Program-made: the position numbers and the translations under genes
The notes under the pieces: model-generated
Seen by the model: the letters and a program-made list of their open reading frames with translations, nothing else
Told to the model about the DNA's origin: nothing
Databases searched by the model: none
Part shown: piece by piece, positions 46,646 through 48,573 of the stretch
How positions within the stretch are numbered: position 1 is the stretch's first letter
Layout: every line of letters begins with the position of its first letter
Source: Patescibacteria group bacterium
Lineage (GTDB): Bacteria; Patescibacteriota; Gracilibacteria; UBA1369; PNNO01
Assembly (NCBI GenBank): GCA_042568575.1
Contig: JBHPIO010000005.1
Span: 17,263-81,262 of the forward strand
DNA length: 64,000 nucleotides
Direction of reading: 5' to 3'

Positions 46646-47215
46646 ATGACACACCACGAAAACGAAGAAGATTGTTGTTGCGACTCAGGTTGCTGCGGTC
46701 TTCAAGTCGGCAAAAAAGCCCCAACATTTAAAATGGAAGGGTACTACAAGGGAGACAAGAAGCATTATCATCTCGAAGATTTCAAAGGGAAATGGGTGGT
46801 ACTTTTCTTTTATCCACTAGATTTCACGTTTGTTTGTCCAACAGAGTTAATTGAGCTCAGCAAAAAACATTCTGAATTCGAAAAAGTTAATGCGCAGGTT
46901 CTTGGAGTAAGCGTAGACAGTGTTTATTCTCATGAAGCATGGCTAAAAGAGATCGGTGATCTTGAATATCCACTTCTTAGCGACATGACAAAACACGTTA
47001 GTCATGATTACAACGTTCTTCTACCAGAAGAAGGAATCAGTTTGCGTGGAGCATTCATCATTGATCCAGATGGAATACTGAAAAGTTACACAGTAAACGA
47101 TCTAACTATCGGTCGAAATGTTGACGAACTAGTACGTTTAATAAAAGCATTCCAAACAGGCGATCTATGTCCTGTGGGATGGAATCAAGGAGAGAAAACT
47201 TTGGGTAAAGCCTAG
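46646..47215 (+). CDS. ahpC: 2-Cys peroxiredoxin
   Basis: FFYPLDFTFVCPTE, GRNVDE, LCPVGW. Confidence 0.95.
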   Translation: MTHHENEEDCCCDSGCCGLQVGKKAPTFKMEGYYKGDKKHYHLEDFKGKWVVLFFYPLDFTFVCPTELIELSKKHSEFEKVNAQVLGVSVDSVYSHEAWLKEIGDLEYPLLSDMTKHVSHDYNVLLPEEGISLRGAFIIDPDGILKSYTVNDLTIGRNVDELVRLIKAFQTGDLCPVGWNQGEKTLGKA

Positions 47216-47219
47216 GTTC

Positions 47220-47800
47220 TCGGGGAAAAGGTAAGAGGCGTACATCTAGTTTCACATACTTGCCATATGAAAATGGTGAAAGCAGAGGTGAGACATACGC
47301 CTCAACGTAATGCTCTTTAATCTCTCTCAAGGTCGTATCAGTGATTGGTTAGAATCTCTGAGATCTCAAGGGATCAAGGAGCGGTATTTGCAACAGGTTC
47401 GACTAAGAGTTCCTGTTACTACATAGCCCTGAAGTAAAATTTAGGGCTATCTCCCTACCGTTCTTTGGATGGTTTATTTTATGACGTAACCACCATCGTC
47501 TTTTTTTTTGTTTCTTTTTTTTGTCCAAAATTAATTGGGAAAAATTTTTGTTTCGTTTGTTTTTGTGTTTTTTGGGTAGGTCCTACCATTTTCTTAAATA
47601 AATGAGAAAAGGAGGCTACTTTTAGGTGGCAGTAGTCGGCTGCCATCGAAAAGTAAGGAGGAGAAGATCATGAAGATACACCTTCATAATCCCGGATCCT
47701 CCCGGCTTTTGCTTGAGCATGCGTATGAGTTACGCACTGCGTGTATTTGTTTCTGTTTCTTTCAAAGGACGTTTGATTTCTATTTCTAATTTGTGAAATC
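47220..47800 (-). ncRNA. Putative large structured non-coding RNA (~580 nt), class unassigned
   Basis: Own promoter; ten or more helices, most wobble pairs are G-U only on the minus strand; A-rich linkers; no credible CDS. The 3' end is approximate. Confidence 0.6.
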
Positions 47801-47805
47801 TTTAC

Positions 47806-47834
47806 ATTATAGCAGTAATACTGGCGGAATTCAA
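47806..47834 (-). promoter_or_regulatory. sigma70 promoter TTGAAT-17-TATAAT with extended -10 TG, pointing into the putative ncRNA
   Basis: Minus strand reads TTGAAT tccgccagtattacTGc TATAAT; predicted start near 47800. Confidence 0.7.
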
Positions 47835-47905
47835 TCCCTTAAAGTGTGACTTTTTCTATAAAATCCTTATAATAAGGAAGCATTAATTTAAATTAGCCTT
47901 AATAT

Positions 47906-48499
47906 ATGGCAGAATTAAAAGGAAAACTATTTTTAATCGTTGGCCCGTCCGGAGTTGGAAAGGGGACTGTGATTGCGCATCTAAAAGAGATTCATCCTGA
48001 ATGGGAATATCCAATTTCCGCTACAACACGCGATCCTAGACCAGGAGAAGAGGACGGAGTGGTTTATCACTTTGTTGATCATGATGAGTTTGAGAAAATG
48101 CTTGAAGAAGGAGAGCTTTTAGAACATGCGATTGTTCATAATAAAGAATATTACGGAACTTTACGCGGACCAATCACTAAGGCACTTGAGGACGGCAAAA
48201 TTGTAATTCGTGAAGTTGATATGCAAGGATGCGAATCAATTCAAGAAGTGATCCCTGAAGAAAATCTAATTTCGATATTTCTAACGGTTACTGATAGACA
48301 GGATTTAATAGATAGAATTATTAAGCGTGGAAAGCTTCCTGAAGAAGAGATAAAAAGGCGTATGGAAAGCGCAGAAAGAGAGTTTGCAAAGGGTGGAGAA
48401 ATATGCGAATATCAGGTTCCGAGTTTAAATGGAAAGATTCCTGAGTGTGTAGCAGAGGTCGAAAAAATCATCTTAGAAGAATCAAAGTCGATTAATTAA
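47906..48499 (+). CDS. gmk: Guanylate kinase
   Basis: GPSGVGKGT, SATTRDPRPGEEDGVVYHF, YYGT. Confidence 0.96.
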   Translation: MAELKGKLFLIVGPSGVGKGTVIAHLKEIHPEWEYPISATTRDPRPGEEDGVVYHFVDHDEFEKMLEEGELLEHAIVHNKEYYGTLRGPITKALEDGKIVIREVDMQGCESIQEVIPEENLISIFLTVTDRQDLIDRIIKRGKLPEEEIKRRMESAEREFAKGGEICEYQVPSLNGKIPECVAEVEKIILEESKSIN

Positions 48500-48573
48500 T
48501 GGGGTGTGGCCAAGTGGTAAGGCAGCGGGTTCTGGTCCCGTGATCGGGGGTTCGAATCCCTCCACCCCAGCCA
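48500..48573 (+). tRNA. tRNA-Gln(CTG)
   Basis: TGGGGTG…GCGGG-TTCTGGT-CCCGT…GGTTCGAATCC…CACCCCA-G-CCA; starts on the base after the gmk stop. Confidence 0.97.

What the first reader, a model, noticed from the sequence alone, without database searches (positions are those of the whole stretch)
47220..47834. Self-promoted ~580-nt highly structured RNA of unrecognised class between ahpC and gmk
Seen: a ~690-bp intergenic gap in an otherwise densely coded window, with a near-consensus minus-strand promoter (TTGAAT-17-TGcTATAAT, 47806-47834). The predicted transcript folds into many helices (plus-strand coordinates): 47775-80/47795-800; 47720-25/47731-36; 47666-75/47682-91; 47617-47655 (nested); 47468-73/47492-97; a multiloop closed by 47382-86/47456-60 holding 47390-97/47412-19 and 47423-30/47443-50; a long irregular hairpin at 47317-47377; and a 13-bp stem 47235-47/47291-303. 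Most imperfect positions are G-U pairs on the minus strand and A-C mismatches on the plus strand (e.g. GAGGCGUAUGUCU/AGAUGUACGCCUC), matching the promoter direction; two small stems favour the plus strand. The two structured halves are joined by a ~70-nt A-rich spacer (47501-47573). Knowledge: it lacks tmRNA tRNA-like ends and the RNase P GAGGAAAGUCC core, and is too long for 6S or SRP RNA. Its size resembles OLE/ROOL RNAs, but I recognise no motif of those. Inference: a possibly undescribed large ncRNA.
Basis: partly seen in the sequence, partly recalled or inferred. Interest (0 to 1): 0.8.

Follow-up and report, generated by a model that had tools for sequence, protein, structure and literature searches.

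The report
New large structured RNA in Peregrinibacteria
The gap beside the guanylate kinase gene encodes a roughly 580-base, intricately folded RNA with its own promoter that is conserved across a whole class of tiny candidate-phyla bacteria and matches no described RNA family, so it looks like a new kind of housekeeping RNA whose job is still unknown.

Summary
The 690-bp gap between an AhpC/TSA gene and guanylate kinase holds a minus-strand RNA gene, about 47800 to 47222. It has a near-consensus extended -10 promoter and a stem plus U-tail end.

It is single-copy in its genome. A core model finds it in 83 of 151 genomes of the order and in 8 genomes of other orders. A 3'-domain model finds it in 32 of 151 genomes of the class and in no genome outside the class among 151 sampled from the phylum.

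About 64 distinct homologues (52-87% identity) give strong covariation for:
- a long-range closing helix
- an H-type pseudoknot
- a second crossing helix
- a loop-loop (kissing) pair joining the two halves
- a 13-bp terminal stem

The "A-rich spacer" is really two conserved single-stranded CA-rich tracts.

Rfam 15 gives no match on it in the window or in seven homologous loci. Seven of the eight literature searches addressed it and found nothing. RNase P, tmRNA and 6S RNA lie elsewhere in the genome, and no Ffh or FtsY was found, so it is not an SRP RNA.

Function is unknown. My best guess is a stable scaffold or decoy RNA that presents the A-tracts to a partner.

The parts
47222..47800 (-). 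Whole predicted RNA, about 579 nt, from the predicted start (G at 47800, +/-1) to the end of the U-rich tail
   Evidence: Bounded by the conserved promoter and by the stem plus U-rich tail. Nucleotide conservation spans the whole stretch in 12 of 12 family genomes.
47806..47834 (-). Promoter: -35 TTGAAT (47829-47834), 17-nt spacer, extended -10 TGCTATAAT (47806-47814)
   Evidence: scores it 10 of 12 with the TG. In one search an extended -10 is present in 27 of 28 homologues and a TTG 17+/-1 nt upstream in 25 of 28. In one search the promoter pattern is found in 18 of 20 metagenome homologues; of the other two, one has TACAAT without TG and one is cut by the contig end.
47707..47800 (-). 5' leader. 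It holds the conserved start GAUUU and the motif GUYCYUUGAAA (47759-47770); the rest is lineage-specific hairpins.
   Evidence: The leader and P0 are missing in L090 and L113, where the promoter sits directly before P1. The leader is kept in the reduced f7 form.
47666..47706 (-). P0 hairpin (GAUUAUGAAG / CUUCAUGAUC and its closing pairs)
   Evidence: A compensatory G-C to U-A change is seen in L011/L012.
47655..47660 (-). P1 5' strand (CUCCUU; consensus CUCCCU). Long-range closing helix with 47451-47456.
   Evidence: all 6 pairs form in 58 of 63 sequences. Compensatory variants are AUCUCU/AGAGAU (L090) and CUCUCU/AGAGAG (L117). In class-level permutation 10 of 5000 reach the observed value.
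47618..47654 (-). P2/P3 hairpin with internal loop and apical loop CCGACUA (47633-47639)
   Evidence: 59 sequences. P2 has 7 bp, 2 covarying pairs and 89% of cells paired. P3 has 5 bp, 4 covarying pairs and 96% paired.
47575..47616 (-). GCCUCC followed by variable hairpins (P4)
   Evidence: A hairpin is present in each homologue, but length and sequence vary.
47545..47573 (-). A-rich tract 1: conserved, predicted single-stranded, CA-rich
   Evidence: Searches show it conserved across families. It is also kept in the f7, f28 and f26 forms.
47525..47539 (-). P5 variable hairpin between the two A-tracts
47501..47524 (-). A-rich tract 2, conserved
47467..47500 (-). H-type pseudoknot. Stem 1 is GACG (47497-47500) with CGUC (47483-47486). 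The loop GGUGG (47490-47494) pairs with CCAUCC (47467-47472). Loop 3 is A-rich (47473-47482).
   Evidence: Stem 1: all 5 pairs have changes on both sides. Stem 2: a complement is present in 67 of 68 distinct rows and in 14 of 14 sequence classes, and 0 of 5000 permutations reach this. Variants seen: GGAG/CUCC, GGCAU/AUGCC, GGUA/UACC, GGGAUU/AAUCCC, GGAAC/GUUCC, GGCGA/UCGCC.
47461..47466 (-). Junction AAAGAA, nearly invariant
47457..47460 (-). Helix X 5' strand (CGGU). It pairs with ACCG at 47382-47385 and crosses P1, which makes a second pseudoknot.
   Evidence: CAGU/ACUG in L108, UAG/CUA in L109; 3 of 4 pairs have changes on both sides and 89.9% of cells are paired. The G at 47382 could instead belong to P9.
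47451..47456 (-). P1 3' strand (AGGGAG)
47424..47449 (-). P7 variable hairpin
47390..47419 (-). P8 hairpin. Its loop UAGUCGA (47399-47405) is complementary to the P3 loop.
   Evidence: P8 stem: all 6 pairs have changes on both sides and 97-98% of cells are paired. Loop-loop pair: a complement of at least 5 nt in 58 of 60 sequences, and across 31 loop classes 0 of 1000 permutations reach the observed sum (178 against a mean of 153).
47382..47385 (-). Helix X 3' strand (ACCG)
47313..47381 (-). P9/P10: long irregular hairpin closed by GCUC/GAGC, with a conserved internal loop (CUCAG / CUGAUA)
   Evidence: in P9, 2 of 4 pairs covary and 96% of cells are paired. One search shows the alignment.
47235..47303 (-). 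3' domain: 13-bp stem P11 (47291-47303 with 47235-47247) enclosing the invariant CACCUCUG (47283-47290), a small hairpin and UAUGUG (47253-47258)
   Evidence: 35 sequences: 88.2% of cells paired against 70.9% in shuffles, and 137 cells changed on both sides against 42.8, reached by 0 of 500 shuffles. Slid controls give 33-51%, and 12 of the 13 pairs of P11 have double changes. (43 sequences) agrees.
47222..47234 (-). U-rich tail after P11: likely intrinsic terminator
   Evidence: U-rich runs follow the stem in most of the 35 rows.
47906..48499 (+). Guanylate kinase gene, transcribed divergently from the RNA. This is the conserved neighbour.
   Evidence: Pfam Guanylate_kin, E 1.5e-33. The ORF on the RNA's 5' side and opposite strand is Guanylate_kin in 3 of 5 other loci tested (L038, L020, L107). 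It lies upstream of the f7 form. By my reading of the sequence, it also lies upstream of the f28 form.

Best explanation
SHOWN. Positions 47800-47222 on the minus strand are a single-copy gene for a structured non-coding RNA of about 580 nt. It has its own strong sigma-70-type promoter and a stem plus U-tail end. It belongs to an RNA family spread through the class that holds Peribacteria/Peregrinibacteria and Gracilibacteria (Patescibacteria), and that family matches nothing in Rfam 15.

The fold is compact and knotted:
- A 6-bp long-range helix (P1) closes a domain of about 200 nt.
- That domain holds a conserved hairpin (P2/P3), two conserved single-stranded CA-rich A-tracts and an H-type pseudoknot.
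- The strand that follows (CGGU-AGGGAG) pairs in one direction with P1 and in the other with ACCG about 70 nt downstream, giving a second pseudoknot.
- The P3 loop pairs with the P8 loop of the 3' half.
- A 13-bp stem with an invariant internal motif ends the molecule.

INFERRED (about 0.3 on its own). It is an abundant, stable, trans-acting RNA. The rigid core is a frame that displays the A-tracts, and perhaps the AAAGAA junction, to a partner. That would make it a scaffold or decoy for a protein or for the small ribosomal subunit, rather than a base-pairing regulator or a cis element.
For: Gene and strand:
- The promoter is conserved.
- Both flanking genes lie on the opposite strand in 12 of 12 diverse loci, so it cannot be a UTR.
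- G-U cells outnumber A-C cells 190 to 44.
- Where the 3' domain is missing, a plain terminator hairpin with a U-run follows on the same strand.

Single copy and distribution:
- One copy in the window's genome.
- 13 of 13 genomes of the family.
- Core model R1: 83 of 151 genomes of the order, one hit each apart from one weak second hit. It also finds 8 genomes of other orders.
- 3'-domain model R2: 32 of 151 genomes of the class, including f28 12/13 and f26 4/15.
- Outside the class: no genome among 401 sampled from the phylum carries the invariant 18-mer (5 of 401 hits, all in-class), and R2 finds none among 151 (2 of 151 hits, both in the own order).
- No match in viral contigs.

Structure:
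-, with the numbers given under 'parts'.
- On the 73-sequence core alignment, 92.1% of cells are paired against 79.7% in shuffles, and 14 of 15 pairs have changes on both sides. No shuffle of 500 reaches this, and slid controls give 30-60%.

Not a known RNA:
- Rfam.
- RNase P RNA, tmRNA and 6S RNA are found elsewhere in the same genome.

For the inferred mechanism:
- The A-tracts stay conserved and unpaired in every form seen, including the reduced f7 form.
- The promoter is close to consensus with a conserved start region, as for stable RNAs.
- In this genome SD-like words are not enriched before 932 crude ORF starts (0.07 against 0.11 in a control window), while A content rises there (0.40 against 0.32), although 16S rRNA keeps its CCUCC end. 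Unstructured A-rich RNA is therefore what this organism's ribosomes probably see at start sites.
Against: - No expression data could be obtained.
- The function rests on anatomy alone, and no partner protein is linked to the RNA. The only conserved neighbour is guanylate kinase; the other neighbour varies (AhpC, SSB, a reverse transcriptase, a pyridine-nucleotide oxidoreductase, shikimate kinase).
- The RNA is not universal in its full form. Family f7 gave 1 R1 hit in 26 genomes, and that genome is 8% contaminated. It carries a shorter, roughly 370-nt relative that lacks the P1/junction core. So either the core is dispensable or the two forms do different things.
- P1 is nearly invariant, so its support is thinner (10 of 5000 permutations).
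- Helix X has 14 unpaired cells at one position.
- The shuffle controls do not correct for relatedness.
- R1 and R2 were run with strict filters on large genome sets, so 'not found' is not the same as absent.
- The SD analysis used crude start sites.
Confidence: 0.7

Rival explanations
1. A new natural ribozyme. The knotted core (P1, helix X, pseudoknot, loop-loop pair) would form an active site, with the invariant AAAGAA junction and the A-tracts as catalytic or substrate-binding strands.
For: Its size, the two pseudoknots, the long-range loop-loop pair and the invariant unpaired nucleotides at junctions are what large ribozymes such as RNase P RNA and group I introns show (established knowledge, recalled). 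It is class-wide and single-copy like a housekeeping enzyme.
Against: No substrate, cleavage site or processing signature is visible. The f7 form lacks the junction and P1, which would be odd for an essential active site. Most large bacterial RNAs of unknown function have not turned out to be ribozymes (recalled).
Confidence: 0.12
2. An RNA that assembles with copies of itself. The covarying P3-loop/P8-loop complementarity would be intermolecular and build dimers or closed multimers.
For: Covariation cannot tell an intramolecular from an intermolecular loop-loop pair.
Against: P1 and helix X already tie the two halves together within one molecule, so an intramolecular kiss is the simpler reading. 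There is no direct evidence either way.
Confidence: 0.08
3. A template RNA for a reverse transcriptase. The topology is telomerase-like: a core-closing helix, a single-stranded CA-rich tract and a pseudoknot with an A-rich loop.
For: The domain closed by P1 has that order of elements. In one locus (L020) the downstream gene is a reverse transcriptase (Pfam RVT_1).
Against: Only 1 of the 5 downstream neighbours put through Pfam is a reverse transcriptase. The genome shows no arrays complementary to the A-tracts and no strand-skewed contig ends (a weak test on a draft assembly). Several relatives are held as single contigs.
Confidence: 0.03
4. A highly diverged member of a known housekeeping RNA family (SRP RNA, RNase P RNA, tmRNA or 6S RNA) that Rfam models miss.
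For: No SRP RNA was found in the window's genome or in five complete relatives that carry this RNA.
Against: RNase P RNA, tmRNA and 6S RNA are found elsewhere above their cut-offs.

The protein partners of an SRP RNA were not found:
- The SRP54 M domain was found in 0 of 5 genomes.
- The SRP54 GTPase domain was found in 0 of 151 genomes of the order, 0 of 151 of the class and 0 of 41 of the phylum, with 14 of 14 control genomes positive.
- TIGR00959 (ffh) was found in 0 of 5 genomes.
- tblastn with E. coli Ffh against the whole genome gave no hit at E<=1e-3.

A passage of PMC8080830 says two SRP subunits are absent in many CPR bacteria.
Confidence: 0.02
5. Not an RNA gene: a conserved regulatory DNA region for gmk, a small-protein gene, or a cis-acting UTR of a neighbour.
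For: There is a 39-aa ORF with a strong SD-like word on the plus strand. The linkage to the gmk promoter region is conserved.
Against: Compensatory base-pair changes run throughout. The ORF's ATG lies in a covarying stem and changes to ATT in L011. ORFs inside the region differ in strand and length between loci. The ORF hits no Pfam family. Both neighbours are on the opposite strand.
Confidence: 0.02

Closest known systems
Large bacterial non-coding RNAs of unknown or recently found function (OLE, ROOL, GOLLD, raiA; names recalled)
   Same: Similar size (hundreds of nucleotides), many conserved helices with pseudoknots, invariant unpaired nucleotides, and discovery by comparative genomics with function unknown at first.
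   Different: No sequence or structure match to any Rfam 15 family. It occurs in a different host group (Patescibacteria). It is chromosomal, single-copy and syntenic with gmk rather than phage- or operon-linked. It has its own consensus-like promoter.
Telomerase RNA template/pseudoknot core (topological analogy only; recalled)
   Same: A core-closing long-range helix encloses a hairpin, a single-stranded C/A-rich tract and an H-type pseudoknot with an A-rich loop, followed by a separate 3' stabilising domain.
   Different: No reverse transcriptase is consistently linked. No complementary repeats are seen in the genome. The host is bacterial and several related genomes are single contigs. There is no homology.
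Decoy or sponge RNAs such as 6S RNA and CsrB-type RNAs (works-like hypothesis; recalled)
   Same: An abundant stable RNA from a strong promoter that would display a mimic of a normal ligand of the expression machinery, here unstructured A-rich RNA like this organism's mRNA leaders.
   Different: No binding partner is known. It is much larger and more knotted than those RNAs. A normal 6S RNA is present elsewhere in the genome. Hfq was not found in the 82%-complete genome.
RNase P RNA and tmRNA (housekeeping RNAs with pseudoknots)
   Same: Single-copy, widely conserved within the clade, several hundred nucleotides, pseudoknotted.
   Different: Both are present elsewhere in the genome above their Rfam cut-offs. 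ARAGORN finds no tmRNA here. The distribution is limited to one class.

Membership tests
Any Rfam 15 family (recalled to include OLE, ROOL, GOLLD, HEARO, raiA and the riboswitch classes) | Covariance-model score at or above the family's gathering threshold | tested here: not met
   the window has 2 matches, both tRNA; at E<=10 on 47150-47950 there are only mir-1281 (22.8 bits against 70), U54 and STnc410, all far below threshold; seven homologous loci have no match on the RNA.
RNase P RNA | Match to RF00010, and being the only such gene in the genome | tested here: not met
   a 168.8-bit match lies elsewhere (contig C23).
tmRNA | tRNA-like ends and a tag reading frame; match to RF00023 or an ARAGORN call | tested here: not met
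   ARAGORN finds only tRNA-Gln nearby; tmRNA lies on contig C26 (113.7 bits).
6S RNA | Match to RF00013; about 185 nt with a central bubble | tested here: not met
   6S RNA lies at C26:55754-55907 (51.7 bits, above the cut-off). This RNA is three times longer.
SRP RNA | Domain IV motif recognised by RF00169 or RF01854 | tested here: not met
   no match anywhere in the window's genome (RF00169 and RF01854), nor in five complete relatives (RF00169 only).
SRP RNA | A partner Ffh protein with an M domain in the same genome | tested here: not met
   none found, while control genomes were positive. The absence in many CPR bacteria is stated in PMC8080830 (passage read).
Cis-regulatory leader or riboswitch | Lies upstream of, and on the same strand as, the gene it controls | tested here: not met
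   in 12 of 12 loci both neighbours are on the opposite strand; the RNA ends in a terminator-like stem.
Guide or template RNAs of mobile or defence systems (omega RNA, bridge RNA, retron or DRT RNAs; recalled) | Adjacent to the partner nuclease, recombinase or reverse transcriptase gene; patchy, mobile distribution | tested here: not met
   the neighbours are housekeeping genes, with a reverse transcriptase in 1 of 5 downstream genes tested; single copy and syntenic; none in viral contigs.
New family defined here | Promoter plus GAUUU start; P1 CUCCCU/AGGGAG; P3 loop/P8 loop complementarity; pseudoknot directly before AAAGAA; 3' domain with CACCUCUG and CAUGUG | tested here: met
   The window has all of these features. 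They recur across homologues.

The most novel reading that the evidence does not exclude
This would be a new RNA machine of the rank of RNase P RNA, tmRNA or 6S RNA, confined to the Peregrinibacteria-Gracilibacteria class. Its doubly pseudoknotted, loop-loop-locked core would hold two invariant unstructured CA-rich tracts that mimic the A-rich, Shine-Dalgarno-free start regions of this organism's mRNAs. It would so capture the small ribosomal subunit or its mRNA-binding protein: a '6S RNA for ribosomes' in bacteria with minimal genomes that also lack the signal recognition particle.
Probability: 0.1. Interest if true: 0.95.

Novelty: categorically new. Interest (0 to 1): 0.85.

Why it matters
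Few large, intricately folded bacterial RNAs are known, and each one has opened new biology. This one is conserved across a whole class of candidate-phyla-radiation bacteria, whose genomes of about 1 Mb keep little non-coding DNA, so about 580 nt under strong structural selection is likely to matter to the cell.

The covariation already fixes most of the secondary structure and three tertiary contacts. That makes it a ready target for cryo-EM, chemical probing and pull-downs.

Two further points give handles on function. A shorter natural variant exists in one family. The organism appears to start translation on A-rich leaders without Shine-Dalgarno sequences.

Tried and rejected
- Expression: no RNA holder was listed for the stretch, so nothing can be said on expression.
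- Structure-aware MAFFT (Q-INS-i): not installed.
- Automatic stem finder for the pseudoknot: my first version picked wrong stems. I replaced it with loops defined by the columns of the covariance-model alignment.
- Script error: one search failed on a bug and was fixed. One search failed on a wrong reading frame of my own, and I dropped that item.
- SRP RNA, RNase P RNA, tmRNA and 6S RNA identities: rejected.
- 39-aa plus-strand ORF: rejected.
- Hfq sponge: Hfq was not found in the window's genome, which is only 82% complete, so this is weak evidence against.
- Telomerase-like templating: no complementary arrays and no skewed contig ends. A reverse transcriptase is the downstream neighbour in 1 of 5 loci tested.
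- Pairing of the 5' leader motif (GUUCUUUG) with the junction (CAAAGAAC): I considered this from the alignments. The leader varies without compensation. The leader is missing in L090 and L113, which keep the junction. The junction is missing in f7, which keeps the leader. Not supported.
- Viral contigs: no exact match to the 18-mer.
- Literature: of the 8 searches run, the seven on this RNA (for it or its motifs; for SRP in CPR) found nothing that describes it. Subscription journals are not in the library.
- Absence of the core in f5, f6, f8 and f18: not followed up beyond f7.
Full report
**What is there**

The window has an AhpC/TSA gene ending at 47215 and a guanylate kinase gene starting at 47906, both on the plus strand. 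The 690 bp between them hold no ORF with a family match. On the minus strand lies TTGAAT-17-TGCTATAAT at 47834..47806.

The minus-strand transcript folds far better than shuffles: -164.5 against -116.5 +/- 6.6 kcal/mol, z -7.3, and 0 of 100 shuffles as good. The plus strand also folds well (z -5.6), so energy alone does not give the strand.

**It is conserved, single-copy and widespread in one class**

- The stretch occurs once in its 1.2-Mb genome.
- BLAST finds it in 13 of 13 genomes of the family at 70-82% identity over nearly its whole length, and in parts in other families.
- Exact-pattern scans gave 18 loci from species genomes and 20 from metagenome contigs. The species records are titled Candidatus Peribacteria, Peregrinibacteria, Gracilibacteria or Patescibacteria. 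All 20 metagenome loci show long homology by nhmmer.
- After removing duplicates I worked with 47 and later 64 distinct homologues, 52-87% identical to the window's copy.

I built two covariance models.

Model R1 covers the core block. I built it from 38 of the 46 available sequences that carry the AAAGAAC anchor motif. Eight were left out as truncated, near-duplicate or poorly alignable: L016, L017, L018, L019, L054, L056, L058 and L068.
- In the order it finds one hit per genome in 83 of 151 genomes. By family: f1 12/12, f2 21/22, f3 3/3, f4 8/8, f19 10/11, f15 10/16, f17 10/22, f13 4/9, f5 0/10, f7 0/22.
- It finds 8 genomes of other orders of the class.

Model R2 covers the 3' domain. I built it from 35 sequences, namely those that my pattern for the two invariant motifs picked up, plus the window.
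- In the class it finds 32 of 151 genomes and adds families that R1 missed: f28 12/13 and f26 4/15.

Outside the class nothing was found.
- The invariant 18-mer with up to one mismatch occurs in 5 of 401 genomes sampled from the phylum, all of them in the class.
- R2 hits 2 of 151 genomes sampled from the phylum, both in the own order.
- Viral contigs hold no exact match.

**Strand and ends**

- An extended -10 is present in 27 of 28 homologues and a TTG 17+/-1 nt upstream in 25 of 28. The promoter pattern is found in 18 of 20 metagenome copies. Of the other two, one has TACAAT without TG and one is cut by its contig end.
- A conserved GAU follows 5-6 nt after the -10, which puts the start at about 47800.
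- In 12 of 12 diverse loci both flanking genes lie on the strand opposite to the RNA.
- The 3' end is a 13-bp stem followed by a U-rich run. Relatives without that domain end in a plain hairpin plus U-run on the same strand.
- G-U cells outnumber A-C cells 190 to 44 in the supported helices. The helices were predicted on this strand, which favours G-U somewhat.

**The fold** (RNA position = 47801 minus the window coordinate)

*P1.* CUCCUU at 141-146 pairs with AGGGAG at 345-350.
- All six pairs form in 58 of 63 sequences.
- Compensatory variants are AUCUCU/AGAGAU and CUCUCU/AGAGAG.
- In class-level permutation 10 of 5000 reach the observed value.
- In two homologues (L090, L113) the promoter sits directly before P1, so the 5' leader and hairpin P0 are dispensable.

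*Inside P1*, in order:
- P2/P3. P2 has 7 bp with 2 covarying pairs. P3 has 5 bp with 4 covarying pairs. The apical loop is CCGACUA (59 sequences).
- Variable hairpins.
- A-tract 1, a variable hairpin, and A-tract 2.
- An H-type pseudoknot.

*The pseudoknot.*
- In stem 1, all 5 pairs have changes on both sides.
- Stem 2 joins a GGNN word in the stem-1 loop to the NNCC just before the invariant AAAGAA.
- A complement is present in 67 of 68 distinct rows and in 14 of 14 sequence classes. Permutations average 6.6 classes, and 0 of 5000 reach 14.
- The variants seen are GGAG/CUCC, GGCAU/AUGCC, GGUA/UACC, GGGAUU/AAUCCC, GGAAC/GUUCC and GGCGA/UCGCC.
- The one exception (L014) pairs with a different bulge, by my reading.

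*Helix X.* After AAAGAA, CGGU pairs with ACCG about 70 nt downstream. This crosses P1 and so makes a second pseudoknot.
- 3 of 4 pairs have changes on both sides, and 89.9% of cells are paired.
- One position has 14 unpaired cells.

*P7, P8 and the loop-loop pair.* Helix X encloses hairpins P7 and P8. The P8 loop UAGUCGA is the complement of the P3 loop.
- A complement of at least 5 nt is present in 58 of 60 sequences.
- Matched variants are CGGCUA/UAGCCG, CCAACA/UGUUGG, CCAACC/GGUUGG, UCGACUC/GAGUCGA, CCGAUA/UAUCGG, GACUUA/UAAGUC and CCGGCU/AGCCGG.
- Across 31 loop classes, 0 of 1000 permutations reach the observed sum.
- Some loops in that script were mis-called, which adds noise against the result.

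*3' half.* P9/P10 follow, and then the 3' domain.
- On 35 sequences, 88.2% of cells are paired against 70.9% in shuffles.
- 137 cells are changed on both sides against 42.8 in shuffles, which 0 of 500 shuffles reach.
- Slid controls give 33-51%.
- The words CACCUCUG and CAUGUG are invariant.

*Core alignment.* On the 73-sequence core alignment, 92.1% of cells are paired against 79.7% in shuffles, and 14 of 15 pairs have double changes. No shuffle of 500 reaches this, and slid controls give 30-60%.

The shuffle controls ignore relatedness. The slid controls and the many independent pair types are the stronger argument.

**What it is not**

- *Any Rfam family.* Rfam 15 gives nothing at gathering score and only three chance hits at E<=10. 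It gives nothing on the RNA in seven homologous loci.
- *RNase P RNA, tmRNA, 6S RNA.* All three are present elsewhere in the genome.
- *SRP RNA.* No SRP RNA was found in the genome or in five complete relatives, which briefly made SRP RNA a serious rival. The proteins are missing too:
  - No SRP54 M domain in 5 genomes.
  - No SRP54 GTPase domain in 151 genomes of the order, 151 of the class and 41 of the phylum, while all 14 control genomes ring.
  - No ffh by NCBIfam in 5 genomes.
  - No tblastn hit with E. coli Ffh in the laid genome. The rpsP control also found nothing, so that control was uninformative.
  - A passage of Moreira et al. 2021 (PMC8080830) says two SRP subunits are absent in many CPR bacteria, so the absence is known. 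This RNA cannot be an SRP RNA.
- *A small-protein gene.* The ATG of the 39-aa plus-strand ORF lies in a covarying stem and becomes ATT in L011.

**Context**

- The gene on the RNA's 5' side, transcribed divergently, is guanylate kinase in the window and in 3 of 5 other loci tested, one of them from another order.
- It is also guanylate kinase in family f7. By my reading of the N-terminal P-loop, the same holds in an f28 genome.
- The downstream gene varies.

**A natural short form**

Family f7 gave 1 R1 hit in 26 genomes, and that genome is 8% contaminated. Yet the gap upstream of gmk in f7 holds a relative of about 370 nt. It has the same promoter, the same GAUUUGUUCUUUGAAA start, an A-tract and the 3' domain. 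It lacks the AAAGAACGGUAGGGAG strand.

An f28 genome shows the full architecture with diverged sequence, and an f26 genome a related form. The parts common to all forms are the promoter and leader, an A-tract and the 3' domain.

**How it may work**

*Shown:* a stable-looking, independently transcribed, knotted RNA that keeps two unpaired CA-rich tracts and several invariant junction nucleotides.

*Inferred:* it acts in trans as a frame that presents those tracts to a partner.

One observation points to a possible partner. In this genome SD-like words are not enriched before 932 crude ORF starts (0.07 against 0.11 in a control window), and A content rises there (0.40 against 0.32). Yet 16S rRNA keeps its CCUCC end. 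Unstructured A-rich RNA is therefore probably what the ribosome binds at start sites, and the RNA could mimic it. This is circumstantial.

The rival readings are a ribozyme, self-assembly through the loop-loop pair, and a reverse-transcriptase template. None is excluded. The template reading has the least support.

**Novelty**

No Rfam family covers it. None of the seven literature searches on it in the held library found a paper or a printed motif for it. Supplements were closed and subscription journals are not held, so a description could have been missed.

Noticed in passing
whole genome G000 and sampled relatives (order, class, phylum): No Ffh, FtsY or SRP RNA was found. The SRP54 GTPase domain was found in 0 of 151 genomes of the order, 0 of 151 of the class and 0 of 41 of the phylum, while 14 of 14 control genomes were positive. 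A passage in PMC8080830 says two SRP subunits are absent in many CPR bacteria, so this is known but striking.
   Followed up: yes
whole genome G000: SD-like words are not enriched upstream of 932 crude ORF starts (0.07 against 0.11 in a control window), and upstream regions are A-rich (0.40 against 0.32). The 16S rRNA 3' end on contig C1 still carries CCUCC. This suggests SD-independent initiation.
   Followed up: partly
L135:1089-1494 and L134:~1150-1452 (family f7, upstream of gmk): A shorter relative of the RNA, about 370 nt, that keeps the promoter, leader, one A-tract and the 3' domain but lacks the P1/junction core.
   Followed up: partly
window 46646-47215 (+): The AhpC/TSA protein has an N-terminal extension rich in cysteines (several adjacent Cys within the first 20 residues) ahead of the peroxiredoxin domain.
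   Followed up: no
L038:6392-6640 (+): A group I intron match (RF00028, 62.8 bits) lies about 3 kb from the RNA in one relative.
   Followed up: no
L020:2101-2781 (-): In this relative the gene downstream of the RNA is a reverse transcriptase (Pfam RVT_1, E 1.4e-13). This was not seen at the other four downstream genes tested.
   Followed up: partly
G000 contig C26: 47449-47884 and 55754-55907: tmRNA and 6S RNA lie within about 8 kb of each other on the same strand.
   Followed up: no
window 48500-48573 (+): tRNA-Gln (CTG) starts one base after the guanylate kinase ORF ends. tRNAs also lie close to the RNA locus in L113 and L066.
   Followed up: no
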